From the NCBI GenBank assembly GCA_025336725.1, contig GCA_025336725.1_3647.1: a stretch of 64,000 nt of DNA, one strand, 5' to 3'. The notes below the pieces were generated by a model, which saw only the letters and a program-made list of their open reading frames with translations, had not been told where the DNA came from and did no database searches. Source of the DNA: Escherichia coli. Lineage in GTDB: Bacteria; Pseudomonadota; Gammaproteobacteria; Enterobacterales; Enterobacteriaceae. Made by a program: the position numbers and the translations under genes. Of the stretch, positions 3,755-60,002 are shown one piece after another. Every line of letters starts with the position of its first letter. The first letter of the stretch is position 1.

Positions 3755-4231
3755 TTATTTTTGCTGTCCAATTTTAAAGGTTGCAGATTCAAGCAGCACA
3801 TCGTAATGCCGCATAGCTTCGTTGAAGCCCTTCTCTTGTGCCCACTGCTCACTAACCGTAGGATTACTAAACTGCCCCGCCTCAATAACAAACTGGATAG
3901 CTTTAGCCCCTGTATCCCCCATCTGCTTAAGAATAGCCTCTGCACTTGATCCTCTAGCCATAGCTCTCAACAATTTTTCTGTCAAGGTCTGCAGTTGCGT
4001 GCTGTGAAATGCAAAGGCCGTCTCCATGAAATTGCGAACAGGCAGCCCGTTCCAACCGAAGTTGTGAATAGCTGCCAATGTTGCCATATTTAAGCCTGAC
4101 GGGTGAGGTTCATCATAAAAGCCGTAGGTTATTGTTTTGCTTTCTAGTTTCACAAGGTCTTTGTAAAAGCGATCTAAACGCTTTAGGTTGAACCTGGTTT
4201 GACATCTAACCTTTAGCATTATATTCCTCAC
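3755..4231 (-). CDS. Hypothetical head-tail joining protein
   Basis: 158-aa track ORF in head-completion position. Confidence 0.3.
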   Translation of the reverse strand: MRNIMLKVRCQTRFNLKRLDRFYKDLVKLESKTITYGFYDEPHPSGLNMATLAAIHNFGWNGLPVRNFMETAFAFHSTQLQTLTEKLLRAMARGSSAEAILKQMGDTGAKAIQFVIEAGQFSNPTVSEQWAQEKGFNEAMRHYDVLLESATFKIGQQK

Positions 4232-4272
4232 TAATGTATTTTACCACAAAGATACATCAAAAGCAACAATTT

Positions 4273-4950
4273 TTAAAAACTGCGTTTGCGTCTTGGGTGG
4301 CGAGGAGGTTGGTTATTTAGACCACTGATAGGTGTAATCCCCTGGACATCGAACGGTCCGTTGCTGTTTTCATTAAATTTAACCCGAATTCCTTCATCTA
4401 CACGAACACCCCCAATGATAATCATTCTGCTGTAAGCATCTAGCTCAGAATCTACATAGTCTGGGTTTGCCAGCAACCAATCAAGGAAATCTTTCCATTG
4501 GGCGTAGGAAGATCCACCACGAATCTCTATGGTCTCATCACCTATTTTTTCCAGACGGGAAGTTATACTTGCATTACCGCTGGACACTTCCTGCATCATC
4601 AGCCACCGCACAAGCTGCACAAGCACATTGTACTTAAGTAGGGGAAGCTTATCAGGGTCTGCCGGATAATTTAATTTCAACTTTTCCATGTCAAGGAATG
4701 TTTTAATTACCTCATCAGGGAGGGTTTCCTCATCAACATTGCCAAGCAACAACCTCATAATATTAATAAGAGGTTGGTCTGGATCAGGTTCCGGAGGTAC
4801 AGGATCTTCTTTTGGTGGTTCTTCTGGGGTATCGACTACACCATCATGGTTAGGCGGGGACGGGATAATCTCTTCATCTTCATACCATGCCATTTGAAAA
4901 TACCTCGTAAAAATAAAGCCCCATTCCTGATTTGGAAGGGGCCTTAACAA
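4273..4950 (-). CDS. Hypothetical virion protein
   Basis: Track ORF uses TTG at 4950; likely true start is ATG at 4893 (MAWYEDEE...); proline/acidic-rich N-terminus. Confidence 0.3.
   Translation of the reverse strand: MLRPLPNQEWGFIFTRYFQMAWYEDEEIIPSPPNHDGVVDTPEEPPKEDPVPPEPDPDQPLINIMRLLLGNVDEETLPDEVIKTFLDMEKLKLNYPADPDKLPLLKYNVLVQLVRWLMMQEVSSGNASITSRLEKIGDETIEIRGGSSYAQWKDFLDWLLANPDYVDSELDAYSRMIIIGGVRVDEGIRVKFNENSNGPFDVQGITPISGLNNQPPRHPRRKRSF
4917..4942 (-). terminator. Weak hairpin plus T-tract between two head-completion genes
   Basis: GCCCC/GGGGC stem with a long loop, followed on minus strand by TTTATTTT. Confidence 0.25.
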
Positions 4951-4952
4951 AA

Positions 4953-5768
4953 TTATGCCAGTGCAGCCTCAAAATCTTTCATCATATTTTGGAAAGTTTT
5001 TGCCTTACTTAAGGTAACACCGTGCTCTTTAGCGAAGGTTTGGAGTGCATCTTTTGAACCACTTTTGTCATCTTCGTTGTTAAGAGCTGCGGCCTGTTTA
5101 AGGATTTCATCCTTATTCTCAACAGCTGCAGATGCGAAAGAGGCTACAGTCACATCTTGTGGATCTGCTACAGGACCTTCACCGTCACCCTCAAGAGGTG
5201 GTTCCGGAACTTCAGGTTCAGGCTCTGGGGCCACTGTAGAGGTCAGCCCAAGATTTACAACCTGAGAGCGTTTCTTAGGCCATTCGATGGTGAAAGTTTG
5301 GGTATCTTCTTCATAAACAATGTTGCATTGCTCATCGTTTATGGTCACTTTCTTAGGCATACCTTCAGGGTCCCACAGATGGCCCTCTGCAACGGAAACT
5401 TGGAAAGCAGCATCTACTTCTTTAAATACTGACGGGGTGAGTGTGATATTGACATCCCCACTTTGCAGTGTTAAAGTGCTTTCATCAAGGTTTTCTGTGA
5501 AGAACAGAAGAATAACACCCATACGGATAGTTGAAATACCAGTATCAATTGGCAGGCCTGTGTGTTTTGCAATCTTCTGGAAGAAGTCTACAATCGTTCT
5601 ACATGGATAGTGAACACTGCCAATAACGAATTCTGTTGGGGGCAGCAGAGCTGATAAACCAACATTGATTTCTGGATTGTATTGTGCTAAAAATTGATAA
5701 AAACTTAATTGATTGTTGAAAACTCTTAATAGAGGATCATACTCAACTGGATATACGGCTCTCTTCAC
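4953..5768 (-). CDS. Hypothetical virion protein
   Basis: 271-aa track ORF directly downstream of the major capsid terminator. Confidence 0.3.
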   Translation of the reverse strand: MKRAVYPVEYDPLLRVFNNQLSFYQFLAQYNPEINVGLSALLPPTEFVIGSVHYPCRTIVDFFQKIAKHTGLPIDTGISTIRMGVILLFFTENLDESTLTLQSGDVNITLTPSVFKEVDAAFQVSVAEGHLWDPEGMPKKVTINDEQCNIVYEEDTQTFTIEWPKKRSQVVNLGLTSTVAPEPEPEVPEPPLEGDGEGPVADPQDVTVASFASAAVENKDEILKQAAALNNEDDKSGSKDALQTFAKEHGVTLSKAKTFQNMMKDFEAALA

Positions 5769-5789
5769 GGGACACTCCTGTTAAACCCT

Positions 5790-5824
5790 AATAAAATAAA
5801 AAAGGGGGGGAGAACCCCTCCCCA
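5790..5824 (-). terminator. Intrinsic terminator after major capsid gene
   Basis: Minus-strand GGGGAGGGG-ttct-CCCCCCC hairpin followed by TTTTTTTATTTT. Confidence 0.6.
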
Positions 5825-5847
5825 TATGGGATGAATCACCTTAGTGA

Positions 5848-6858
5848 TTAGCCACCGTTTTTCAGAGTTACTTTAACAACCAGCTCTGGACGGGTGTTAA
5901 CTGCCAGCATAGAAGTTTCAGATTCAATCTTCTCTTCACGCAGGTATGCAGAGTGTTTATACCACATATACAGTTCCTGTGCTGGGGTATTTGCTTCGTT
6001 AACATCGTCTGCCGGAGCAAAGTGCAGCTGGAACATCTGATCAATACCCATCGGCAGAATGCGAGCTTCTTTCGTAGGAATATTGCCAGAGATATCTTCG
6101 ATAAAGGTGATACCTTTATGCTCAAACACACGGTATACGCTGTCTTGACCGCCAGCACCAAGACGGCGACGCAGAGGTTCCTGAGCAGAGCCGTAATAGG
6201 TGTATGCCAGTTCTACCAGAGGGTGATGGGTAATAGCACTGAAGAACTCCGGTGAGCACAGAGCTACAATACGATAGCCAGCTGCGTTATCGCCAGCTTG
6301 CAGCGCGATGTGCAGACGAGCTTCTTCCAGAACCTCCATCGGATCCTGATCTGCTTTTGCAGGGTCGATCTCAACAGATTTCTGAGACACACCCCACAGA
6401 GTGTAGTAGTCATACTGACAAGTTGTGTCGCCAGGTGCATAGGATTTACCCAGAATAGCCTGGAACAGCGCTTTCTCACGCAGTGCTTCATGAGAAACAC
6501 GGATACGGCGAACAACGCGGGTTACTACGTCCTGAACAGTTTTCGGAGCATCAGGGGTGAAGTAACGACGGAAGTTCTGAACATCTGCGGCAGTGATGCC
6601 TTTATCCAGAGGGAAGAACGGGATGTTCAGGTTTTTAACCTGGGCACGTTCACTACCAACGTAGTTACGCTCACCACCACGACGGCGTGCCGGAATGTCG
6701 GTTACAACTTCATCAACACGCTCGATCTGAGCAATTGTTGAGGTGCCGAGACGGGTTTCGAACAGATCCATACCAGTGATCAGTCGGAATTGGCGCGGAA
6801 CAAGGTCCAGAGTAGCACCTAAATCAACAATGCCAAATTCATCTTTACGAGTAATCAT
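5848..6858 (-). CDS. Major capsid protein (putative, HK97-fold)
   Basis: 336-aa ORF downstream of scaffold and decoration-like genes and followed by a strong terminator; typical capsid size. Confidence 0.6.
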   Translation of the reverse strand: MITRKDEFGIVDLGATLDLVPRQFRLITGMDLFETRLGTSTIAQIERVDEVVTDIPARRRGGERNYVGSERAQVKNLNIPFFPLDKGITAADVQNFRRYFTPDAPKTVQDVVTRVVRRIRVSHEALREKALFQAILGKSYAPGDTTCQYDYYTLWGVSQKSVEIDPAKADQDPMEVLEEARLHIALQAGDNAAGYRIVALCSPEFFSAITHHPLVELAYTYYGSAQEPLRRRLGAGGQDSVYRVFEHKGITFIEDISGNIPTKEARILPMGIDQMFQLHFAPADDVNEANTPAQELYMWYKHSAYLREEKIESETSMLAVNTRPELVVKVTLKNGG

Positions 6859-10440: not shown

Positions 10441-11583
10441 TTAGATAAAACGCTTGAACATAGAGGGTGATGAGATTGATGGAATCACACAAGGCAGCGC
10501 TACCTCCTCTTTCTCCAGGAAATTAATCGCAGAAGCTACACAGTCGGCCCAGTCGTCTTTTCTGTTAAATGTTGATCTTTCCCCGTTGAATTTTTCAAGT
10601 TCAGTCAGAAATGCTTCCAGAGTATCAGGATGAAAACTGGATTTTACAATCCTCACCATCCCTTGTTGGGCAAGATTGGCAAAAGGTGAGAACCTTGTCA
10701 GTTTAGATTTGTTGGAAGGCATTGGGTCTTCTTCAACCCTGAACCCTTCGGCGAGCAAGGATCTGGATGAGGTTAAGAACTCACTCTTACCTGCCTGACC
10801 AGGGTCCACAGAAAATACGATTATGCAATCATCTCCATCAAACTGCGCCTGTTTTCTGATGATCACATCTCGTTCCCCAGCCTTTTTACAGAACTTGCCT
10901 TCCAGACCTGTGGAATACCTCCCGTCATCCACGTTCTCAGGACAATAGTCCCCAGATAGGTAATAAAAGCCGTCGCTATCTTTACTTACCTTAACACTGG
11001 CGGTAAAGTCAGGAAATTTATTACCGGAAGTTCTCTCGGTTCCTGCCTTATCCCATGCCCTGCAAGATACTGATCCAAGAGGTACTCTATCGGCATCACG
11101 AAGGAAAGATCTTTGGAAATAGTTTGCACCCTCAGGTTTGGCAAACCAGTTGCCATGAAGAAGCTGGGCTTTTTCCAGCTCTGGCAGACCTTCAAGGAAA
11201 GCAAGGTATTCTGGGTTGTCTCTCAGGCATACAGGATTATCGAAAATTGTTGCGCCTATAAACGAGAATGACAACGGTCTTGGCTTGATTTCCACACCTA
11301 GTCCATTGACCGTAGTGTATTTCTCTATTAACTCCTCTTTAGAGTCTCCCCAGATAAACTCACCGTCGCGTCGGATAAAATATCTTTTCTTACCACATTT
11401 CTCCGGATCTGGATACCCTTCATCGTCCAACCACCACCTAACCAGTTTGGCAAGCATGTGTTCTGAGTCGGGGTTACAACTGATAACCATTCTTGATGGA
11501 TACTTTGACTGAGATCGCAGACGAGACATCAAATAGTCTATCTGCTCCCATTCGAATTGCGTGCCTTCATCGAAGCAAACCAT
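10441..11583 (-). CDS. terL: Large terminase, Walker B and nuclease segment
   Basis: Begins MVCFDEGTQF (Walker B hhhhDE); same frame as 11611..11988, separated from it by a single TAA at 11608-11610. Confidence 0.75.
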   Translation of the reverse strand: MVCFDEGTQFEWEQIDYLMSRLRSQSKYPSRMVISCNPDSEHMLAKLVRWWLDDEGYPDPEKCGKKRYFIRRDGEFIWGDSKEELIEKYTTVNGLGVEIKPRPLSFSFIGATIFDNPVCLRDNPEYLAFLEGLPELEKAQLLHGNWFAKPEGANYFQRSFLRDADRVPLGSVSCRAWDKAGTERTSGNKFPDFTASVKVSKDSDGFYYLSGDYCPENVDDGRYSTGLEGKFCKKAGERDVIIRKQAQFDGDDCIIVFSVDPGQAGKSEFLTSSRSLLAEGFRVEEDPMPSNKSKLTRFSPFANLAQQGMVRIVKSSFHPDTLEAFLTELEKFNGERSTFNRKDDWADCVASAINFLEKEEVALPCVIPSISSPSMFKRFI

Positions 11584-13088: not shown

Positions 13089-13165
13089 TGGTCTCCACGG
13101 AGTGATTCGAACACTCGACCTCCTGATCCCAAATCAGGCGCTCTACCAAGCTGAGCTACGCGGAG
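13089..13165 (-). tRNA. tRNA-Pro (anticodon TGG)
   Basis: Hand-folded cloverleaf: acceptor CTCCGCG/CGTGGAG, anticodon stem CCTGA/TCAGG with loop TTTGGGA, T-loop TTCGAAT, encoded CCA. Confidence 0.65.
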
Positions 13166-13174
13166 TTTATAATT

Positions 13175-13249
13175 TGGTGGCCCTGGGTGGAATTGAACCA
13201 CCGTCTGGCGATTATGAGTCGCTTGCTTGAACCTTCCAGCTACAGGGCC
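13175..13249 (-). tRNA. tRNA-Met (anticodon CAT; could be Ile-lysidine)
   Basis: Acceptor GGCCCTG/CAGGGCC, anticodon loop CTCATAA, T-loop TTCAATT, encoded CCA. Confidence 0.6.
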
Positions 13250-13250
13250 A

Positions 13251-13326
13251 TGGTGCTGATGGCAGGACTCGAACCTGCAACCTATTGATTACAAATCAAT
13301 TGCACTACCAATTGTGCTACATCAGC
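13251..13326 (-). tRNA. tRNA-Thr (anticodon TGT)
   Basis: Acceptor GCTGATG/CATCAGC, anticodon stem ATTGA/TCAAT with loop TTTGTAA, T-arm GCAGG-TTCGAGT-CCTGC, CCA. Confidence 0.6.
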
Positions 13327-13331
13327 AAAAA

Positions 13332-13430
13332 GGTGCTAGGCGATGGAATCGAACCACCTATGTATTCAACGACTACTTCGTCTATTTTCAGGATTAAAAA
13401 TCCTCGCCCTTGCCAAAGGGCCTACCTAGC
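13332..13430 (-). tRNA. Atypical tRNA-like element (~99 nt), identity unresolved
   Basis: Good acceptor (GCTAGGT/GCCTAGC), D-arm and T-arm (GGTGG-TTCGATT-CCATC); only plausible anticodon hairpin AGGA-TTTTTAA-TCCT (TTT) plus a ~30-nt variable region with its own hairpin. Confidence 0.4.
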
Positions 13431-13528
13431 ATATTATGCGAATCATGCTGCTAGTCGGCGATGACGACTGTAACATTTGTTAATCCGGTTCTGCTTCCGG
13501 AGCTCGCTTAATTTCATGATCCACGATC

Positions 13529-13618
13529 TGGCAGAGAGTAATGGAATCGAACCATCATCGAGGATATCTCAACGGGACGGTTTTCAAGACCGCTTGAGCA
13601 CCATGCTCCCTACTCTCT
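13529..13618 (-). tRNA. tRNA-Ser (anticodon TGA), long variable arm
   Basis: Acceptor AGAGAGT/ACTCTCT, anticodon stem GCGGT/ACCGT with loop CTTGAAA, ~20-nt variable arm, T-loop TTCGATT, CCA. Confidence 0.6.
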
Positions 13619-13730
13619 TTTTATAAACAACACTGATAATGACACTGATTTTCGAACAGTTAGTGACTAGTATAAACGACGATAAACATCAATGTCATTA
13701 TCTATGTTATTTATCACAAATATGTAATTT

Positions 13731-13817
13731 TGGTGGGGAGTGATGGAGTCGAACCACCCGAGTCGCAATGACAATAGATTTACAGTCTACACCGCTACCC
13801 CTACGGTATAACTCCCC
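13731..13817 (-). tRNA. tRNA-Tyr (anticodon GTA), long variable arm
   Basis: Acceptor GGGGAGT/ACTCCCC, anticodon stem GTAGA/TCTAT with loop CTGTAAA, ~15-nt variable arm, T-loop TTCGACT, CCA. Confidence 0.6.
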
Positions 13818-13821
13818 GATT

Positions 13822-13896
13822 TGGCACCCCGTACTGGACTCGAACCAGTGTCAACGGCTTAGAAGGCCGCTGCTTTATCCACTAAGCTAACAGGGC
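13822..13896 (-). tRNA. tRNA-Arg (anticodon TCT)
   Basis: Anticodon stem GCGGC/GCCGT with loop CTTCTAA, T-loop TTCGAGT, CCA; acceptor contains G-U wobbles. Confidence 0.55.
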
Positions 13897-14187: not shown

Positions 14188-14288
14188 CNNNNNNNNNNNN
14201 NNNNNNNNNNNNNNNNNNNNNNNNNNNNNNNNNNNNNNNNNNNNNNNNNNNNNNNNNNNNNNNNNNNNNNNNNNNNNNNNNNNNNNNN
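14188..14288. other. Assembly gap (run of N)
   Basis: About 100 consecutive N characters in the sequence. Confidence 0.95.
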
Positions 14289-14296
14289 AAACAACC

Positions 14297-38473: not shown

Positions 38474-38752
38474 ATGAGCTGCGAAAAATCTTTTTTCATC
38501 ATCATTTACGGTAAGGATAACTGCCCACATTGTGTAAGAGCAAAAGAATTTGCAGTCAGTAAAGGCATACCTTTCGTATACAAGACGCTAGGTGAGGGAT
38601 ACACAAAAGAAGAGCTTATCGAGAAGTGTAGCCCATTTGTTCCCAGAACGTTGCCTCAGATCTTCTTGGAAAGCAACCTTAACAGTATCCACATAGGAGG
38701 TGCTGACGATTTCATCTCTTTTGTTAAGAATGGTTTTGGAGAGAAAAAGTGA
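38474..38752 (+). CDS. Glutaredoxin (NrdH-like)
   Basis: 92 aa with CPHC redox motif near the N-terminus. Confidence 0.65.
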   Translation: MSCEKSFFIIIYGKDNCPHCVRAKEFAVSKGIPFVYKTLGEGYTKEELIEKCSPFVPRTLPQIFLESNLNSIHIGGADDFISFVKNGFGEKK

Positions 38753-41378
38753 AAGTTGTAAAACGGGACGGTAGAGAAGAGTTTTATAACGGAATCAAGG
38801 TGATCAAGGCGGCAGAGTCCGCCTTACTTGAGTCTGGGCATACTGAAGAAGAAGCTTACCGGATTGCCTGCGCGGTTAATGAAGTTGTTGCCAACAATCT
38901 GCCAACCGACCAGTGCACGATCTCTGTAAAAAATATCCATATCCTTGTTGAAGATGCTCTTATGGATATGGGTTTAAAATGTGCAGCCAGAGAATACATC
39001 CAGTATAGACAGACAAGAGATAATAACAGAGAGGCAGGTGGAAAACTGCTTGCAGATATTAGTGGCTTTTTGGATCGTACTTGTGATGAATTTACAAAAG
39101 AAAACGCAAATAAGCCTACTAATCATGTACACACTCATCGTGACCTGCTTGCAGGAATCCTTAGCAAACACCTTGCATCAACACAGATCCTGCCAGATCG
39201 TGTCTCAGAAGAGCACAACAAGGGCTTCATCCATGTGCATGATCTTGACTACTTGATCAGTCCGTTAACAAACTGTTGTTTGGTAAATTATCCGGATATG
39301 CTGGAAAACGGATTCAACATTGGTAACGCCCATGTCAGCAAGCCTAAGTCAATAGGGGTTGCAACAACAATCCTTAGCCAAATCTCTAGTGCAGTAGCTA
39401 GTGCTCAATATGGTGGTCAGACTATGAGCCATATTGATCATTATTTGGCACAGTATGCTGAAGCCACCTATGAGAAGAACCTTAAATTTTGTCAGGAGCA
39501 TTGGTTGCCGGATGCTGAAGGCGTTGCAATGCAGATGACTGATAAAGACGTGTTTGACAGTATGCAGACGTTGCTTTATCAAATCAACACGTTAACTTCT
39601 GTCAACGGTTAACAAACTGGCCGTTTTAAAACTCTGCTAACCTCAGTATGAGGGGTCAGCTGATTGCTGGCTAACGGGGAACGCTAAGGCGAAAGCTATG
39701 CCAATCCCGTGACTAGCTTCACAAGGAGTGAGGCGGTTGTAACGACTAACCTTTTGGTGTAGGGATTATGGAAGATTCCGAAACGCAGAGGTCTGATTAA
39801 GAATCACATGGTGTGATTTCAGGCAAGAGATAGTCTGGCCTTGTGGAAACATAAGGGTGGGGACCGCAAACCCCTTTTATCACATTAAGTTTAGGACTTG
39901 ATACCTCGGTCTTTGGTAGAATGATTACCAAAAACTATTTGAAAGTTCACAAAATGGGTCTTGGTGAAGAACGGATCACACCTGTGTTCCCTAAAGTATT
40001 GTTCTTCCTAGAAGAGGGTGTCAACATGAGCCCTGAGGATCCTAACTATGATTTGAAACGATTAGCTCTGGAATGCTCTGCAGAGCGGATTTATCCTGAC
40101 TTTGTTTCTGTTCCGCTAAATCGTAAGGTGACAGGTTCTACAGATGGCAAAGTAACGAGCATGGGTAAACTATAACTGCTCATGTAAAATCTATCTAAAC
40201 GGGGAAACTCCAGAACGGACAATCCCGTGCTAAATGTTCTTTTGAACTAAATGCCTAACGACTAACCGTGATGAATGTAGCGGTGTAGGGTGTAAGCCGA
40301 TGACACTCGAAATGGTAGACACACTAAGTGTGAAGATATAGTCTGATCTGCATGGGAACATGCAGCAGCACTTAAAGGTGCGGGGGTGGACTTGCGAACC
40401 ACCCTGAACATAATGTGTAGAAGTTTCTTATCGAAATATAGCGACCCTGTAACAGGCGAGGAGAAATACCTTGGCAGATTTAACTTAGGTGTTGTTAGCC
40501 TTAACCTACCAATGATTGCGGCAAAAGCTAAGACGGAAGGTGTTGATTTCTTTACCGTTCTAGACGAATATCTGGATTTGGCATATGAAGCTCACCTTGT
40601 AAGGGTTAACCGTCTGAAAGGCACTAAGGCAGGTCAGAACCCCATCATGTGGTGTGAAGGCGCTCTTGCTCGCTTGGATCCTGAAGAGAGTATTGATAAA
40701 CTCTTCTATGACGGGTACGCTTCCATCAGTATTGGGTATATTGGTGTGTATGAAACCTGTCAGATTTTGGGTAGAGAGGGAGACAAGGCTTTAGCTCTTG
40801 GAATCCTTCAGCACATGAAAGATGCTTGTGAGCGATATAAGAAGGAAAGTGGTCTGGCATTCAGCTTGTACGGCACTCCTTCTGAAAGCTTGTGCTACAA
40901 AGCTGCAACCTGTCTGGATCGTGAATATCCTGAGGTATTGAAGCACGAGCATGAATATATCACCAACAGTTTCCACCAACCAGTATGGATCAATAGTTCA
41001 CCTTTTGATAAGTGGAAGTATGAAGAAGGTTTTGCTATGATCTCCTCTGGCGGCAACATTGGATACATAGAGACACCTAACCTGAAAAACAACCTGGATG
41101 CTTTAGAGGCTCTTGTTGACTTCGGGTATAAACACATTATGTATTTTGGTATTAACCAGCCAGTGGATAAATGTCTTAAGTGTGGATTCTCTGGTGAGTT
41201 CAGTGCAACAGCTAAAGGGTTCTGCTGCCCTGCGTGCGGATGCCACGATGAACAATATATCTCAGTGATCCGAAGAGTGTCTGGCTATCTCTCCAGCCCG
41301 AACAGTAGGCCGTATAACACAGGTAAACAAGCAGAGGTTATCGAGCGAGTTAAGCACTACGGAAGTTGTGGCTGCTGA
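38749..41378 (+). CDS. nrdD: Anaerobic ribonucleotide reductase, three exons
   Basis: Exon1 38749..39609, exon2 ~39867..40166 (GPQTPF...DTS...GRMIT...PEDPNYDL), exon3 40416..41378 (CRSFL, RVSGYL glycyl-radical motif, CxxC...CxxC). Confidence 0.7.
39610..39866 (+). mobile_element. Group I intron 1 in nrdD (ORF-less, ~257 nt)
   Basis: Exon ends in T, intron begins with TAA stop and ends in G; contains AAGAGATAGTCTGG resembling the group I core; exon reading frame restored after removal. Confidence 0.5.
40167..40415 (+). mobile_element. Group I intron 2 in nrdD (ORF-less, ~249 nt)
   Basis: 5' exon ends ATGGGT, intron ends in G before TGT AGA (CRSFL); contains AAGATATAGTC, the conserved group I core element. 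Confidence 0.6.
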
Positions 41379-56821: not shown

Positions 56822-57037
56822 ATGAAGATAGAAATATTTGGTGGAGCTGACAACACTCGTGGCCTGATTTACCTTGAATTTGATGAATCTTACCTCCCAG
56901 AGGTGTTAAACATGGACGCTATTGCAGAATCCCTTAATGTAGACCCTAAAGATCTCTACTCAGGTGCTGAAATTGATGGTTGGGAAGAGACTATGAACAT
57001 TGATTTCAGTGAATCAGGTGATGAACCTCTGGACTGA
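56822..57037 (+). CDS. Small acidic hypothetical protein (MKIEIF-type)
   Basis: 71-aa track ORF, last plus-strand gene before the ORF-poor region. Confidence 0.35.
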   Translation: MKIEIFGGADNTRGLIYLEFDESYLPEVLNMDAIAESLNVDPKDLYSGAEIDGWEETMNIDFSESGDEPLD

Positions 57038-57385
57038 CACACAATTAGCTGCTCAGCTAAGGTTCTGTAGGCACCTATAACATCTTCCAACTAAATTTCC
57101 TACCAACACAGTTACTTACCTACCACACATGACTGTTTGCTTGTTTAGTGAGCAGTCATCCCTTGACATTCTTGCCTATCATGATAAAATTAAGTTCTTC
57201 TCTTTTCTTTTACCGAGTAATTCGGGTTTTCTGTTCTCTTCGGTTTGAAGGGGTATGGAGATACACCTGAGTGAACAGGGTGAACAACCGAACATTTGGC
57301 TATGGCATTAGCATGGCGAAGCGGACGGGTGACGAAAGAGGGGCCGGAGGACACCAGTCACTGCCATATAGTATATGGGTGATAA

Positions 57386-57927
57386 CCTGAAGAGTCTGAA
57401 TAAGTGTTTAAGTACCAGTCAGAGGAAAGGGTGAATGGTAGACGAAGGGGGAGGGGGGTTTCTTATATCTTTAATTTGTATACTTTATATACACTTGTAA
57501 ACCAATTCAATTGTAATTTGTTTACCACACAAAGTGGATAGAGACAAATATCACCTATTAAACTTGAATTATTTATAGAAAATACCACAACACCTCTTAA
57601 GTCTTTGATTTTACACACAAATCTTACAAATATCCTACCTCCATATTTAACATACTTGTAACATACTCCATATCCTACCTGCCTGATCAATTTTACTCCC
57701 ATCACATCCCCACATTCCCCTGTCTGTATTACTCCCCGCCCCGCTTGGGAGTCCTGTCATATCTGGCTTTCCGGCAAATATCACACCCACAAATATCATC
57801 ACCTGAAGAGGGTTTCATCCCATAGTATATACCTTGCCTGAAGAGCGCTTCATACACCACCTAAATTTTTTAATTGACCCCTCCCCGCCGCCGGAGAGGT
57901 TGGCTTTTCCCACACAGGCCTGAAGAG
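57386..57927 (+). repeat. Four same-strand copies of CCTGAAGAG
   Basis: Copies at ~57386, 57802, 57837, 57919; two preceded by ATAGTATAT. Confidence 0.5.
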
Positions 57928-58464
57928 TCAGCCAGAAATATCTCAAGGGGTCCGGTTATGCCACGATTCTGTGCTTGTCCTACAGGAGTGCTGCCCTGTC
58001 AGGAGCCGGTAGCGACTGGAGTGCTGCCAGGCGGACGGAATGGGAATACTTCTCATTCTTATAACGATTCTCAAATATCATGGCAGTGAGGCAAATTAAT
58101 AGGCCAGGCCGTTCACACAGTGGCACAACATTTGCAACCTATCTTGGGTGGGGGAATGAGAATACCTATCATTGTGAGAATAGTTATCATTACGGGCAAT
58201 TTAACATAATACCCATTATGCGCACCACTGGCGATACATACAGGGATTGATAACATGTGACACTGTTTACGCATATAACAATTGCATTTCTTACTATTTG
58301 TGGGGGATATAGTTAGCAGCCAATAGATTAGATATTAACCTGCAGCTATCCAGCCATTTAGACGTCTAAACGCCCACACAACAAGGATTATACATACATT
58401 CCTGAATGTAAACAGGGCCGCAAAAATGCTACCATACCAGATTGTAAATTTTTCATGCAGCACT

Positions 58465-58560
58465 TGACAAAGAGGAGAAAAACTTGTCTGACATGCTGTG
58501 ACATAATGGTGACATACTGGGCATGCTGTGACACAACTGACACGATTGACATAATTGACA
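58465..58560 (+). repeat. Phased array of TGACA(T) motifs
   Basis: Eight TGACA at ~58465, 58489, 58499, 58510, 58529, 58538, 58547, 58556; last four 9 bp apart; GCATGCTGTGACA occurs twice. Confidence 0.5.
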
Positions 58561-58683
58561 TGCATGACTGTTTACGCTCTCACTATTCCCGCTATTACTA
58601 TTCACTCCCTTTACTGTTTACATTTCCAATAATCTACATGCATAATAGTTTACATAGCTAACTATTTACACAGAGATGATAAG

Positions 58684-58924
58684 CCATGACATTCGTTTGC
58701 ATGACAATAATCACACTGATTATAATTAGCATGACATAATATAAAAGCAGGGCAACTATTAGAAGATCTATAGTTGCCTTGCTTATTATGTCATGATTAA
58801 CTGAATATAAGGCAACTATGATCTGATTAATAGTTTGCAGACAAACTATCACGGGGGTGATGGTTACTGCTTTTATATTATGTCGCGACTCCGTCGCGCC
58901 ATGCCATTCGTTTGCATAGTTGCC
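58684..58924. repeat. Direct repeat plus long imperfect palindrome
   Basis: CCATG(A/C)CATTCGTTTGCAT at ~58684 and ~58899; inverted arms CATGACATAATA...GGCAACTAT / ATAGTTGCC...ATTATGTCATG about an AGATCT centre (~58730-58795). Confidence 0.5.
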
Positions 58925-59530
58925 TTATTGTTACAGGTAAAACAATTGCATTGTTAATTGTTTCTTATCTTTTTCTTAGTCATCTAATGATTTCAGTCAG
59001 GACAGTAATGTACAGTAACCATTAGACGACTAAAGATTTCTCTGTTTATGATAACTCACCGTGATAATTTCGGACGGTTTACGAAAAATGTTGACACCCT
59101 GGCTGATTTATGTTATGCAGTTTACACGAATAATTATTTTATGCAGGTATTGACTATTCCGTTATTCTGTGGTTGGAATAAATACTTAGCAGGCTATAGA
59201 ATGGTGAACGTACGTAAATTCTGAGATTTGGCGGCTATAGTTATACTCGATTTTTCACGTAGAACACGGCTTTGTGGTTGTGTAAGTGTATGACTTATAA
59301 AGATTTTTAGTTATTGACAAGATATTGAAGATGTGCATCAGGTTAAATTTTGTGCAATAGCGGCATTACGTGCAATTTTGGGAGAGAAAACGGGTAAAAA
59401 TGGCATTGCTACCACATAATGAAAGATTATGCAATAGTTATTTTATATGTATATTTGTACAGTGTGCGGGATTGATGGCTCGTCAATTATTCCACTTGCC
59501 AGGCGGGGCCGTTGTGGTAGGAAGAGAGCA

Positions 59531-59559
59531 GACAAAAAGAAAGGGGCTTAGTGGGCCCC
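59531..59559 (-). terminator. Intrinsic terminator for the minus-strand block
   Basis: Minus-strand GGGGC-ccactaa-GCCCC followed by TTTCTTTTTGT. Confidence 0.45.
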
Positions 59560-59714
59560 TTGATAATTCAGTTAAAAAATTATAATGATTCGTATATTTC
59601 AAAAATCCGATTTGCCAGGCGTCGTTACGGAATCTAAATTTTTCTTCACGTTTGATCATAAGATCTTTATAGCCGTATTTCCTTAAGCACTTCATTAACT
59701 TTATGGCGGCATAC

Positions 59715-60002
59715 TTACATTATCTTGAGCGTCACCAATAAACTTGTTGCTATGTGGTGCATTGCTTTAATTTCTTCTTCCAGGACCAGGGCAACTACGC
59801 GGACCGGATCAAGCTGATATGCGGTAACATCAATGCGGCATTGTAGACGGCTTTTAACGTCTGCCACCGGATATACTGCAACCTCTTCCCCGTCAACATT
59901 GACGATAATTAGTTTACCATCGATTTCGAATCCTTTCGCCGCCGGACCGTGACAAAAAGCGTTATCAAAACTGTATGCCGGATTATCAGATTCAATGTTC
60001 AT
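59715..60002 (-). CDS. Hypothetical protein
   Basis: 95-aa track ORF. Confidence 0.3.
   Translation of the reverse strand: MNIESDNPAYSFDNAFCHGPAAKGFEIDGKLIIVNVDGEEVAVYPVADVKSRLQCRIDVTAYQLDPVRVVALVLEEEIKAMHHIATSLLVTLKIM

What the first reader, a model, noticed from the sequence alone, without database searches (positions are those of the whole stretch)
57040..59714. 2.7-kb ORF-poor region at the convergent junction of the two gene blocks
Between the last plus-strand gene (ends 57037) and the first minus-strand gene (59715) there is no convincing ORF but dense repeat structure, described in the next three findings. Candidate roles are replication origin, packaging recognition site or terminal-repeat boundary, or a regulatory RNA locus.
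Basis: seen in the sequence. Interest (0 to 1): 0.65.

Follow-up and report, generated by a model that had tools for sequence, protein, structure and literature searches.

The report
Phage genome ends and packaging region
The 2.5-kb gene-free stretch is where the linear DNA of this rV5-like E. coli phage begins and ends: it holds a 459-bp terminal repeat flanked by short repeat arrays that probably guide DNA cutting and packaging, which is largely known for this genus.

Summary
Window 57038-59579 has no conserved ORF and is far richer in repeats than shuffled sequence. The right edge needs correcting: the first minus-strand gene is a frameshifted ORF164 homologue that runs down to 59580, with its terminator at 59541-59561.

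The window is a Vequintavirus (rV5-like). The rV5 paper already drew this stretch as a "non-coding" box, and a 2025 transposon screen found no insertions in it.

The decisive result concerns the genome ends. Two curated relatives (HdK5, Gotham) carry an identical 459-nt sequence at both ends, and it maps to window 58030-58488. At least seven more assemblies start or stop exactly at one of these two positions. A different genus (Phapecoctavirus Schickermooser) has a 329-bp terminal repeat at the matching place, with homologous boundary motifs.

So the region is the concatemer junction. It holds one copy of a short direct terminal repeat, with hypervariable repeat arrays on both sides (TGACAY starts at the first base after the repeat), as in T7.

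Two parts remain unexplained:
- a 265-nt element at 57194-57458, driven by a strong promoter and about 96-99% identical across the genus;
- a hairpin element at 58730-58930 that recurs in three phage clades from two subfamilies.

The origin and RNA options are untested and could coexist with it.

The parts
56822..57037 (+). Last + strand gene (rV5 ORF163 homologue, 71 aa). In the linear genome it is the last gene before the right end.
   Evidence: Intact in 15 of 16 relatives.
57163..57190 (+). Sigma-70-type promoter-like site, TTGACA-16-TGaTAAAAT (11 of 12 matches, extended -10). It points toward the terminal repeat.
   Evidence: Both hexamers are invariant in 17 genomes.
57194..57458 (+). 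Near-invariant, purine-rich, non-coding element that ends in a G5-A-G6 tract (57447-57458). Candidate RNA or R-loop-forming transcript; function unknown.
   Evidence: Only about 14 variable columns in 17 genomes, and 96-99% identity in about 120 records. Second most purine-rich 200 bp of the window. Substitutions are not concentrated at third codon positions (my reading). No Rfam hit. Fold z-score -1.4. Restricted to the genus.
57459..57600 (.). AT-rich tract whose sequence varies between genomes. Strand composition flips here, from G-rich to C-rich on the + strand.
   Evidence: 22.5% GC over 120 bp, the second-lowest real value in the window. GC skew reaches -0.70 at 57545. Two genomes carry a quite different sequence here.
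57545..58029 (+). Flank on the genome's right-end side. C-rich, with CAAATATC (57545, 57627, 57775, 57790), CCTGAAGAG (57802, 57837, 57919) and GGAGTGCTGCC x2 (57984-57995, 58017-58028). It includes a hypervariable indel zone at 57955-58015 that abuts the repeat.
58030..58488 (.). Direct terminal repeat, present as a single copy as at a concatemer junction. Boundaries: ...GGAGTGCTGCCA|GGCGGACGG... and ...AAAAACTTGTC|TGACATGC...
   Evidence: The first 459 nt equal the last 459 nt in HdK5 and in Gotham (where it is annotated repeat_region), and both map here. ECP2309 and at least two of the bov records (four by ORF164 offset) start at 58030. ECP2303 ends at 58488, and EcoIv14a_Aya starts there on the other strand. 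A 458-bp redundancy is reported in PMC6563267.
58072..58082 (+). CAAATATCATG motif, 42 nt inside the left boundary.
   Evidence: The same motif lies 44 nt inside the left boundary of the Phapecoctavirus repeat.
58157..58191 (.). Tandem 18-bp palindromic unit, TGAGAATAnnTATCATT x1.9. It resembles a Fur box and is annotated repeat_region in some records.
   Evidence: A related palindrome sits in the Phapecoctavirus repeat.
58441..58470 (-). Promoter-like site, TTGTCA-18-TACAAT, inside the repeat and reading leftward. It overlaps the conserved TTGACAAAGA motif.
   Evidence: 100% conserved. TTGACAAAGA is shared with A5-4 and W70.
58489..58680 (+). Flank on the genome's left-end side. A TGACAY array (7 copies in 58489-58560 at mostly 9-11 bp spacing; an eighth at 58465 lies inside the repeat) starts at the first base after the repeat, followed by xTTTAC repeats. 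Copy number and sequence are hypervariable.
58697..58726 (+). Weak promoter-like site, TTGCAT-18-TATAAT (perfect -10), just upstream of the hairpin element.
   Evidence: Read directly from the sequence. It falls below the scanner's -35 threshold.
58730..58930 (.). Conserved hairpin or palindrome element. It has 18-nt perfect arms (58733-58750 / 58867-58884), an alternative local 66-nt hairpin (58730-58795), GGCAACTAT x4 in both orientations, the inner hairpin AACTATCAC-GGGG-GTGATGGTT, and then GCGAC-TCC-GTCGC.
   Evidence: 94-100% conserved. A long inverted repeat with a different sequence lies at the matching place in A5-4/W70/LTH01 (21-nt arms) and in tuntematon/nieznany (24-nt arms).
58931..59540 (.). 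Conserved non-coding stretch (0.83-0.99 agreement with the window across 17 genomes, per 30-bp bin) with several TTGACA-containing sites. No role assigned.
59541..59561 (-). Intrinsic terminator of the minus-strand gene block.
   Evidence: The same site is annotated as a terminator in Murica, HdK5 and Gotham.
59580..60002 (-). rV5 ORF164 homologue, disrupted here by four window-specific indels. It is either a pseudogene or a product of draft-sequence errors.
   Evidence: The gene is absent in nomo, APCEc02, HdK5 and Gotham.

Best explanation
The gap is the terminus region of a linear Vequintavirus genome, seen here in its joined (concatemer-junction) form because the assembly was not opened at the physical ends.

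Anatomy:
- Window 58030-58488 is the single junction copy of a 459-bp direct terminal repeat.
- 57038-58029 is the non-coding right-end flank.
- 58489-59579 is the non-coding left-end flank.

Inferred mechanism, by analogy with T7-type short-repeat phages:
1. Replication gives head-to-tail concatemers joined through the repeat.
2. Terminase recognises sequences at or near the repeat. Candidates are the one-orientation TGACAY array abutting the right boundary, the GGAGTGCTGCC and CAAATATC elements on the left, and CAAATATCATG 42 nt inside the repeat.
3. Terminase cuts at 58029|58030 and 58488|58489, and the repeat is duplicated by local DNA synthesis so that each virion receives a copy at both ends.

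The conserved hairpin element (58730-58930) and the promoter-driven element aimed at the repeat (57163-57458, then an AT-rich tract) are candidate helpers for that local synthesis or processing. Their roles are not shown.

Shown: the position and boundaries of the repeat by homology, the absence of genes, the conservation pattern and the repeat arrays. Inferred: which elements terminase reads, and how the repeat is duplicated.
For: 1. Identity: the gap is about 90% identical to more than 120 Vequintavirus records.
2. HdK5 and Gotham each have a first 459 nt identical to their last 459 nt, and both map to window 58030-58488. Gotham annotates both copies as repeat_region.
3. Korf et al. placed genome ends where most reads ended abruptly, and report a 458-bp redundancy for EdH4 and HdK5.
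4. Independent assemblies use both boundaries as record ends. ECP2309 and at least two bov records (four by ORF164 offset) start at 58030. ECP2303 ends at 58488, and EcoIv14a_Aya starts there on the other strand.
5. Conservation fits. The repeat is conserved right up to both boundaries, while the sequence just outside each is hypervariable, with indels and changes in repeat copy number.
6. Cross-genus support. Schickermooser (Phapecoctavirus) has a 329-nt repeat at both ends inside the equivalent gap next to its ORF164 homologue. Its boundary motifs are homologous (AGTGCT| on the left, ACTTG(T/C)(C/T)|(T/C)(G/A)ACAT on the right), and CAAATATCATG lies 42-44 nt inside the left boundary in both genera.
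7. T7 control. T7 has a 160-bp repeat followed at once by a one-orientation CCTAAAG array (8 exact copies), a leftward host promoter next to the repeat, and phiOR aimed at the right repeat from 549 bp upstream.
8. A transposon screen of a sister phage (Bas54) found no insertions in this roughly 2-kb intergenic region. That fits an essential cis-acting site.
Against: - No reads or virion DNA exist for this genome, so its ends are inferred from relatives that are about 93% identical in the repeat.
- Three papers call this genus circularly permuted or headful: the rV5 paper and PhageTerm results for the bov phages and BpE1AUH.
- An essential packaging site normally spans a few hundred bp, so it does not obviously explain an insertion-free 2 kb.
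- The most conserved element (57194-57458) lies 570-840 bp from the repeat and is absent from the two other clades examined. It is therefore not a general requirement of this terminus type.
- TerL here has the T4-type fold (Terminase_6N/6C). That says nothing either way about end type.
- I did not confirm which GenBank record is Bas54. The match to this gap rests on the paper's description.
Confidence: 0.8

Rival explanations
1. The gap is, or also contains, the origin of phage DNA replication. Transcription from the 57163 promoter forms a G-rich R-loop that ends at the G5AG6 tract next to an AT-rich unwinding tract, or the repeat arrays bind an initiator protein.
For: - Strong invariant promoter.
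- Purine-rich transcript side, ranked second in the window, followed by a 22.5% GC tract.
- Repeat arrays.
- The locus tolerates no insertions.
- In T7 a promoter near the right end acts as a secondary origin (my knowledge, not tested here).
Against: - No DnaA box with one mismatch or fewer.
- The arrays abut the repeat boundaries rather than the AT-rich tract.
- Cumulative GC skew peaks here rather than bottoming out, and the rV5 authors tied all skew switches to transcription direction.
- The promoter element is missing from Phapecoctavirus and A5-4-like gaps.
- The AT-rich tract is not conserved in sequence, which is compatible with an unwinding element but not diagnostic.
Confidence: 0.2
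2. The gap is chiefly a non-coding RNA locus. It would make a roughly 265-nt RNA from 57197 to about 57460, and possibly a roughly 140-nt RNA from about 58733 to the hairpin-plus-T run at 58844-58880.
For: - A promoter directly upstream of a block that is 96-99% identical across the genus and shows no coding signature.
- The pyrimidine-rich 5' end can pair with the purine-rich 3' end using many G-U pairs, which only RNA of this strand allows.
- A T-G wobble recurs in the inner hairpin of the 58730-58930 element in two clades, and the + strand folds better than its complement in Phapecoctavirus (-88 vs -58 to -63 kcal/mol).
Against: - No Rfam family at E <= 5 in either element.
- Fold z-score is only -1.4.
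- There is too little variation for covariation, and the cross-genus alignment is unreliable.
- No transcript data were found in the literature searches.
- In A5-4-like phages the two strands fold equally well.
- The hairpin could equally act as DNA.
Confidence: 0.25
3. The phage packages by the headful mechanism from a pac site in this region. On this view the '459-bp repeat' is an assembly convention, not a fixed physical repeat.
For: PhageTerm calls of 'circular permutated' or headful for bov phages and BpE1AUH. The rV5 paper also states circular permutation.
Against: - Headful packaging fixes at most one cut, yet both boundaries recur as record ends in assemblies from several laboratories.
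- 459 bp exceeds any assembler k-mer overlap. The bov records, by contrast, had a 77-nt overlap trimmed between versions (135,960 to 135,883 bp).
- Korf et al. saw abrupt read ends.
- A second genus shows the same layout.
- The rV5 statement rests on low-coverage Sanger assembly.
Confidence: 0.07
4. The gap is merely a buffer between convergent transcription units (terminators plus decayed genes) with no specific function.
For: Terminator-like hairpins on both strands. ORF164 is decaying in this genome. Annotators place scattered small ORFs here.
Against: - Blocks are more conserved than the neighbouring genes.
- Repeat density is 5-10 sd above shuffles.
- The locus tolerates no insertions.
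- The equivalent gap in Phapecoctavirus is not convergent.
Confidence: 0.03

Closest known systems
Vequintavirus terminal redundancy (phages EdH4 and HdK5, Korf et al. 2019, PMC6563267; GenBank MT682716 Gotham repeat_region)
   Same: It is the same sequence. The 459-nt repeat of HdK5 and Gotham aligns end to end with window 58030-58488 at about 93-94% identity, with identical boundary motifs.
   Different: The window holds one copy in the interior of a permuted draft assembly. Neither source, as far as I could read, describes the flanking arrays, the hairpin element or the conserved promoter element, or links the repeat to the 'non-coding' box of rV5 or to the insertion-free region of Bas54.
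Bacteriophage T7 concatemer junction (160-bp terminal repeat with flanking CCTAAAG short-repeat arrays, promoters A0 and phiOR)
   Same: - A short direct repeat.
- A one-orientation array of short repeats starting next to the repeat.
- A promoter reading into the repeat, and another aimed at it from several hundred bp upstream.
- Gene-free flanks.
- A hairpin DNA intermediate is proposed for duplicating the T7 repeat (PMC4281155), which parallels the conserved hairpin here.
   Different: - There is no sequence similarity.
- This is a 137-kb myovirus that uses host RNA polymerase and a T4-type TerL fold.
- The repeat is three times longer and the gene-free zone about twice as long.
- The two flanks carry different repeat units.
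- Function of the arrays is unproven in both systems.
Phapecoctavirus terminal repeat (Schickermooser 328-329 bp)
   Same: It occupies the matching position next to the ORF164 homologue. It shares homologous boundary motifs, CAAATATCATG at the same offset, TGAGAAT..TATCA palindromes inside the repeat, and a long inverted repeat about 250 bp beyond the right boundary.
   Different: The repeat is shorter. The left flank is only about 280 bp, with different repeats (CATGGCAATCA). It has no counterpart of 57163-57458, and its neighbouring genes are not convergent.
Human mitochondrial CSB II (G-run that stops transcription and leaves an R-loop primer)
   Same: GAAGGGGGAGGGGGGTTTC (57444-57462) is a G5-A-G6 run followed by T's, about 250 nt downstream of a strong promoter and next to an AT-rich tract. 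The resemblance is recalled from memory and was not tested.
   Different: Nothing shows that transcription stops here or that a primer forms. The length of the G-run varies between genomes. This is a lead only, not a membership claim.

Membership tests
Short direct-terminal-repeat genome terminus (T7-type ends) | The same sequence is present at both ends of the linear virion genome | tested here: met
   Shown for close relatives only. HdK5 and Gotham have a first 459 nt equal to their last 459 nt, and this maps to window 58030-58488. It cannot be shown for this genome without reads.
Short direct-terminal-repeat genome terminus (T7-type ends) | Sharp read-start pile-ups at both boundaries and two-fold coverage across the repeat | not testable with these tools
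   No reads are available. Korf et al. report that most reads ended abruptly at the ends. Two PhageTerm reports disagree.
Short direct-terminal-repeat genome terminus (T7-type ends) | Both boundaries are fixed positions, seen independently | tested here: met
   Records from several laboratories start at 58030 or end at 58488. By chance this would be about 1 in 70,000 per record.
Short direct-terminal-repeat genome terminus (T7-type ends) | Gene-free flanks with one-orientation short-repeat arrays next to the repeat, as in T7 | tested here: met
   The TGACAY array starts at 58489, and CAAATATC and GGAGTGCTGCC lie on the left. This is a resemblance rather than a strict defining trait.
Headful (pac) packaging site | One fixed initiation cut, with other ends spread out and no fixed second boundary | tested here: not met
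   Two fixed boundaries 459 bp apart recur as record ends.
DnaA/iteron-type replication origin | DnaA boxes | tested here: not met
   No TTATCCACA site with one mismatch or fewer in the gap, against 39 in the window. One relaxed match was found.
DnaA/iteron-type replication origin | An AT-rich unwinding element next to the iterons | tested here: inconclusive
   An AT-rich tract exists at 57459-57600. The arrays, however, lie 0.5-1 kb away and abut the repeat boundaries.
DnaA/iteron-type replication origin | The cumulative GC-skew minimum lies at the origin | tested here: not met
   Cumulative skew is at its maximum near 56-57 kb. In phages skew follows transcription direction, so this is weak evidence.
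Known structured RNA family (Rfam 15) | A covariance-model match at or near the family threshold | tested here: not met
   No hit at gathering score in the gap. At E <= 5 there are only four chance-level hits, none in 57194-57458.
Structured RNA (any) | Compensatory base changes that support a fold | tested here: inconclusive
   57194-57458 is too invariant for the test. For 58730-58930 each clade keeps a long inverted repeat with a different sequence, but the cross-genus alignment is unreliable, and a DNA hairpin would give the same pattern.

The most novel reading that the evidence does not exclude
The 265-nt element (57194-57458) is driven by a strong promoter, nearly invariant across the genus, purine-rich, ends in a G5AG6 tract and abuts an AT-rich stretch 570 bp from the terminal repeat. 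The most novel reading is that it is a new functional phage RNA or R-loop. It would prime the local DNA synthesis needed to duplicate the terminal repeat, or to start replication. The hairpin element conserved across three phage clades would be the second half of that processing machinery. This would explain why about 2 kb, not 0.3 kb, tolerates no insertions.
Probability: 0.15. Interest if true: 0.6.

Novelty: already known. Interest (0 to 1): 0.33.

Why it matters
This links three separate published observations on rV5-like phages:
- the "non-coding" box drawn in 2013;
- the 458-bp terminal redundancy reported in 2019;
- the unexplained insertion-free 2-kb region reported in 2025.

It also argues against the repeated statement that these phages are circularly permuted. 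That has practical consequences for opening and annotating more than 120 deposited genomes consistently. It affects phage engineering, because insertions here are likely to be lethal. It also bears on judging transduction risk in therapeutic phages, since fixed-end packaging carries a lower risk of generalised transduction than headful packaging.

The internal anatomy gives concrete targets for packaging studies in a large myovirus: two different flanking arrays, boundary motifs shared by two genera, a conserved hairpin and a near-invariant promoter-driven element.

Tried and rejected
- **Protein coding.** Nine gap ORFs were scanned against PHROGs, and six of them, together with rV5 ORF164 and the flanking ORF163 homologue, against Pfam. 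Nothing passed threshold, and the ORFs are not conserved.
- **Known RNA families.** Nothing was found.
- **Distant homologues of 57194-57458.** Sensitive blastn against the phage collection found only Vequintavirus. nhmmer and short-word blastn against A5-4, W70 and tuntematon found nothing. A metagenome scan with a 20-mer returned five Vequintavirus contigs and two unrelated high-GC chance matches. A covariation test was therefore impossible.
- **Cross-genus structural alignment of the hairpin element.** MAFFT/RNAalifold could not handle the length differences, and one coordinate set I supplied was off. I do not use its pair counts.
- **DnaA boxes and IHF sites.** None were enriched.
- **IMG/VR search with the ORF163 protein.** Only three loci were returned.
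- **Exact-protein contig look-up for ORF163.** The protein is not on record.
- **Bas54 identity.** JeffSchatz turned out to be Bas55, so Bas54's record was not identified.
- **The 5% GC spot at 14.19 kb.** I first took it for a feature, but it is a run of 100 N.
- **TTGACA sites as promoters.** The idea that the sites at 58464, 59094 and 59313 are all promoters was dropped. They lack -10 elements, and the 58464 motif is conserved in A5-4 without a promoter context.
Full report
**What the window is.** The gap is about 90% identical over its full length to more than 120 records of rV5-like E. coli myophages of the genus Vequintavirus. These include rV5, Murica, FFH2 and several BASEL phages. In rV5 it lies between ORF163 and ORF164. 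The rV5 paper draws it as a grey box labelled "non-coding" and gives it no function. The authors' skew analysis, done to look for an origin, found only switches that follow transcription direction. [quoted passage not shown] It concludes only that the locus must be important.

**Checking the observation.** The last + strand gene (56822-57037) is real and conserved.
- Inside the gap, no ORF of 50 aa or more is intact in more than 7 of 16 aligned relatives, apart from one inside a near-invariant block. The small ORFs that stay open also lie inside that block.
- The longest ORF (80 aa) is what shuffled sequence gives (83 +/- 18), and no other 2.5-kb tile of the window is as ORF-poor.
- No gap ORF matches a PHROG or Pfam family above threshold.
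- Repeats are dense: 74 direct and 54 inverted 9-mer pairs, against 18 +/- 5 and 22 +/- 6 in shuffles.
- Several words are strongly enriched and lie in one orientation.

One correction is needed. ORF 59715-60002 is the front part of the 139-aa ORF164 homologue, which in this genome carries four private indels. Its remnant runs to 59580, and its terminator is at 59541-59561. The non-coding span is therefore about 57038-59579.

**Conservation pattern.** I aligned 17 genomes.
- 57182-57460 is almost invariant, more so than the flanking genes.
- 58440-58470, 58740-58930 and 59100-59160 are also highly conserved.
- Two zones are hypervariable, with indels: 57955-58015 and 58498-58650.

**The decisive result.** Korf et al. 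[quoted passage not shown] They report that the Vequintavirus phages EdH4 and HdK5 have terminal redundancies of 458 bp, and that the Phapecoctavirus Schickermooser has a terminal repeat of 328 bp.
- In the HdK5 and Gotham records the first 459 nt are identical to the last 459 nt. Gotham annotates both copies as repeat_region. Both map to window 58030-58488.
- The boundaries read ...GGAGTGCTGCCA|GGCGGACGG... and ...AAAAACTTGTC|TGACATGC....
- Other assemblies break at exactly these positions. ECP2309 and at least two Hungarian bov records (four by ORF164 offset) start at 58030. ECP2303 ends at 58488, and EcoIv14a_Aya starts there on the other strand.
- The two hypervariable zones sit immediately outside the two boundaries, while the repeat itself is conserved up to its last base.

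**A second genus shows the same layout.** Schickermooser's first 329 nt equal its last 329 nt. They lie inside the equivalent gene-free gap beside its ORF164 homologue.
- In window orientation its boundaries are AGAAGTGCT|TAACGCG... and ...GAGAACTTGCT|CAACAT..., recognisably related to those of the window.
- CAAATATCATG lies 44 nt inside the left boundary, against 42 nt in the window.
- The A5-4-like phages share the 11-mer TGCTGCCAGGC that spans the left boundary, and the motif TTGACAAAGA near the right one. Their ends have not been mapped.
- In Phapecoctavirus the genes on both sides run the same way. The gap therefore marks the genome ends, not a convergent junction as such.

**Anatomy around the repeat.**
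- *Right of the repeat:* seven TGACAY units (an eighth, at 58465, lies inside the repeat), mostly 9-11 bp apart, begin at the first base after the boundary. TGACAT occurs 8 times against 0.8 expected. xTTTAC repeats follow.
- *Left of the repeat:* GGAGTGCTGCC twice, CCTGAAGAG three times and CAAATATC four times, all on one strand.
- *T7 control:* I checked T7 directly. Its 160-bp repeat is followed at once by a one-orientation CCTAAAG array. A leftward host promoter (A0) sits beside the repeat, and phiOR points at the right repeat from 549 bp upstream.
- The window has the matching items: a leftward promoter-like site inside the repeat (58470 to 58441), and a strong invariant promoter (57163-57190) pointing at the repeat from 840 bp upstream.

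**Most likely mechanism.** I conclude that this is the concatemer junction of a phage with short fixed terminal repeats. Terminase would read elements in or beside the repeat, and cuts would fall at the two boundaries. The repeat would then be duplicated by local DNA synthesis, as proposed for T7, where a hairpin DNA intermediate has been seen (PMC4281155). The position of the repeat is shown by homology. Which elements terminase recognises, and how the repeat is duplicated, is inference.

**Two sub-elements are not explained.**

1. *57194-57458.*
   - It starts just after the promoter and is 96-99% identical across about 120 records.
   - It is the second most purine-rich 200 bp of the window.
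   - Its few substitutions are not concentrated at third codon positions (my reading).
   - It ends in G5AG6 followed by T's, and abuts a 22.5% GC tract where strand composition flips.
   - It has no Rfam match and an unremarkable folding z-score.
   - It has no counterpart outside the genus.
   - An RNA or R-loop role is plausible but untested.
2. *58730-58930.*
   - It has 18-nt perfect arms 116 nt apart, an alternative local hairpin and four GGCAACTAT sites.
   - Each of the three clades examined (Vequintavirus, the A5-4 group, Phapecoctavirus) keeps a long inverted repeat at the matching place, with a different sequence in each.
   - An inner ATCAC/GTGAT hairpin carries a T-G wobble on the + strand in two clades.
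   - The element could act as RNA, as a DNA hairpin or as back-to-back terminators. My cross-genus alignment was too poor to decide.

**Rival explanations.**
- *Headful pac site.* Some PhageTerm reports and the rV5 paper claim this. It does not fit two fixed boundaries seen by several laboratories, nor a 459-bp identity that is far longer than any assembler overlap.
- *Replication origin.* It may coexist with the terminus. However, it lacks DnaA boxes, and the arrays sit at the repeat boundaries, not at the AT-rich tract.
- *RNA locus.* It may also coexist, but is unproven.
- *Passive spacer.* This is excluded by the conservation and the insertion data.

**Novelty and score.** The gene-free box, the terminal redundancy and the essentiality are each already published for this genus, so the feature is known. 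What I found nowhere in the papers I read is the link between the three, the boundary motifs shared across genera, the two different flanking arrays, the near-invariant promoter-driven element and the recurring hairpin. These make useful hypotheses rather than a surprise, so I rate interest at about one third.

Noticed in passing
window 14190-14289: A run of exactly 100 N, i.e. a scaffold gap. The window therefore comes from a draft assembly, and single-base indels elsewhere (for example in the ORF164 homologue) may be sequencing errors. The gap also produced a false 5% GC signal in my composition scan.
   Followed up: yes
window 38749-41378: The anaerobic ribonucleotide reductase gene nrdD is split in two (38749-39612 and 40386-41378) by a group I intron that Rfam detects at 40093-40365.
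   Followed up: partly
window 10441-11583 and 13089-13896: Only the C-terminal part of the large terminase (T4-type fold) is encoded at 10441-11583. This fits the split, intron-containing terminase gene described for rV5. Six tRNA genes lie just upstream.
   Followed up: no
window 59580-60002; L019 5891-6310; L024 1019-1438: The ORF164 protein is about 91-92% identical between Vequintavirus and Phapecoctavirus, which belong to different subfamilies, and it always sits next to the genome end. Yet it is absent from several Vequintavirus genomes and broken here. This suggests a mobile or exchangeable accessory gene at the terminus.
   Followed up: partly
window 58059-58073 and 58157-58191; L019 4630-4650 and 4812-4830: AT-rich palindromes inside the terminal repeat resemble the E. 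coli Fur box. TGAGAATAGTTATCA has 2 mismatches to TGATAATnATTATCA. The Phapecoctavirus repeat has TGAGAATAATTATCA, by my count 1 mismatch (sequence seen). They could bind a host protein or a phage protein.
   Followed up: no
window 57040-59600: GATC is depleted. There are 3 sites in the gap against about 14 expected from the window-wide density of 348 sites in 64 kb.
   Followed up: no
window 57447, 57453, 58150, 58302, 58853: Five of the window's 27 runs of five or more G lie in the gap, all on the + strand, and the gap has no run of five or more C. A5-4 and W70 carry GGGGGAGGGGGAGGGGG 12 nt inside their putative left boundary.
   Followed up: no
L016 (phage I29) 1283-5027: I29 carries a tandem duplication of about 580 bp corresponding to window 57669-58246. 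It spans the left boundary of the terminal repeat. It may be real, or an assembly artefact of the terminal repeat.
   Followed up: no
L023 (LTH01) versus L020 (A5-4) 4080-4300 and 5690-5980: LTH01 lacks two blocks of the A5-4 gap. One contains two TTGTCCACA (DnaA-box-like) sites, so those are dispensable in that clade.
   Followed up: no
literature: Published statements on the ends of rV5-like genomes conflict. Circular permutation or headful packaging is claimed in PMC3606486, PMC8407724 and PMC13211470. Fixed 458-bp or 328-342-bp repeats are reported in PMC6563267 and PMC12210895.
   Followed up: partly
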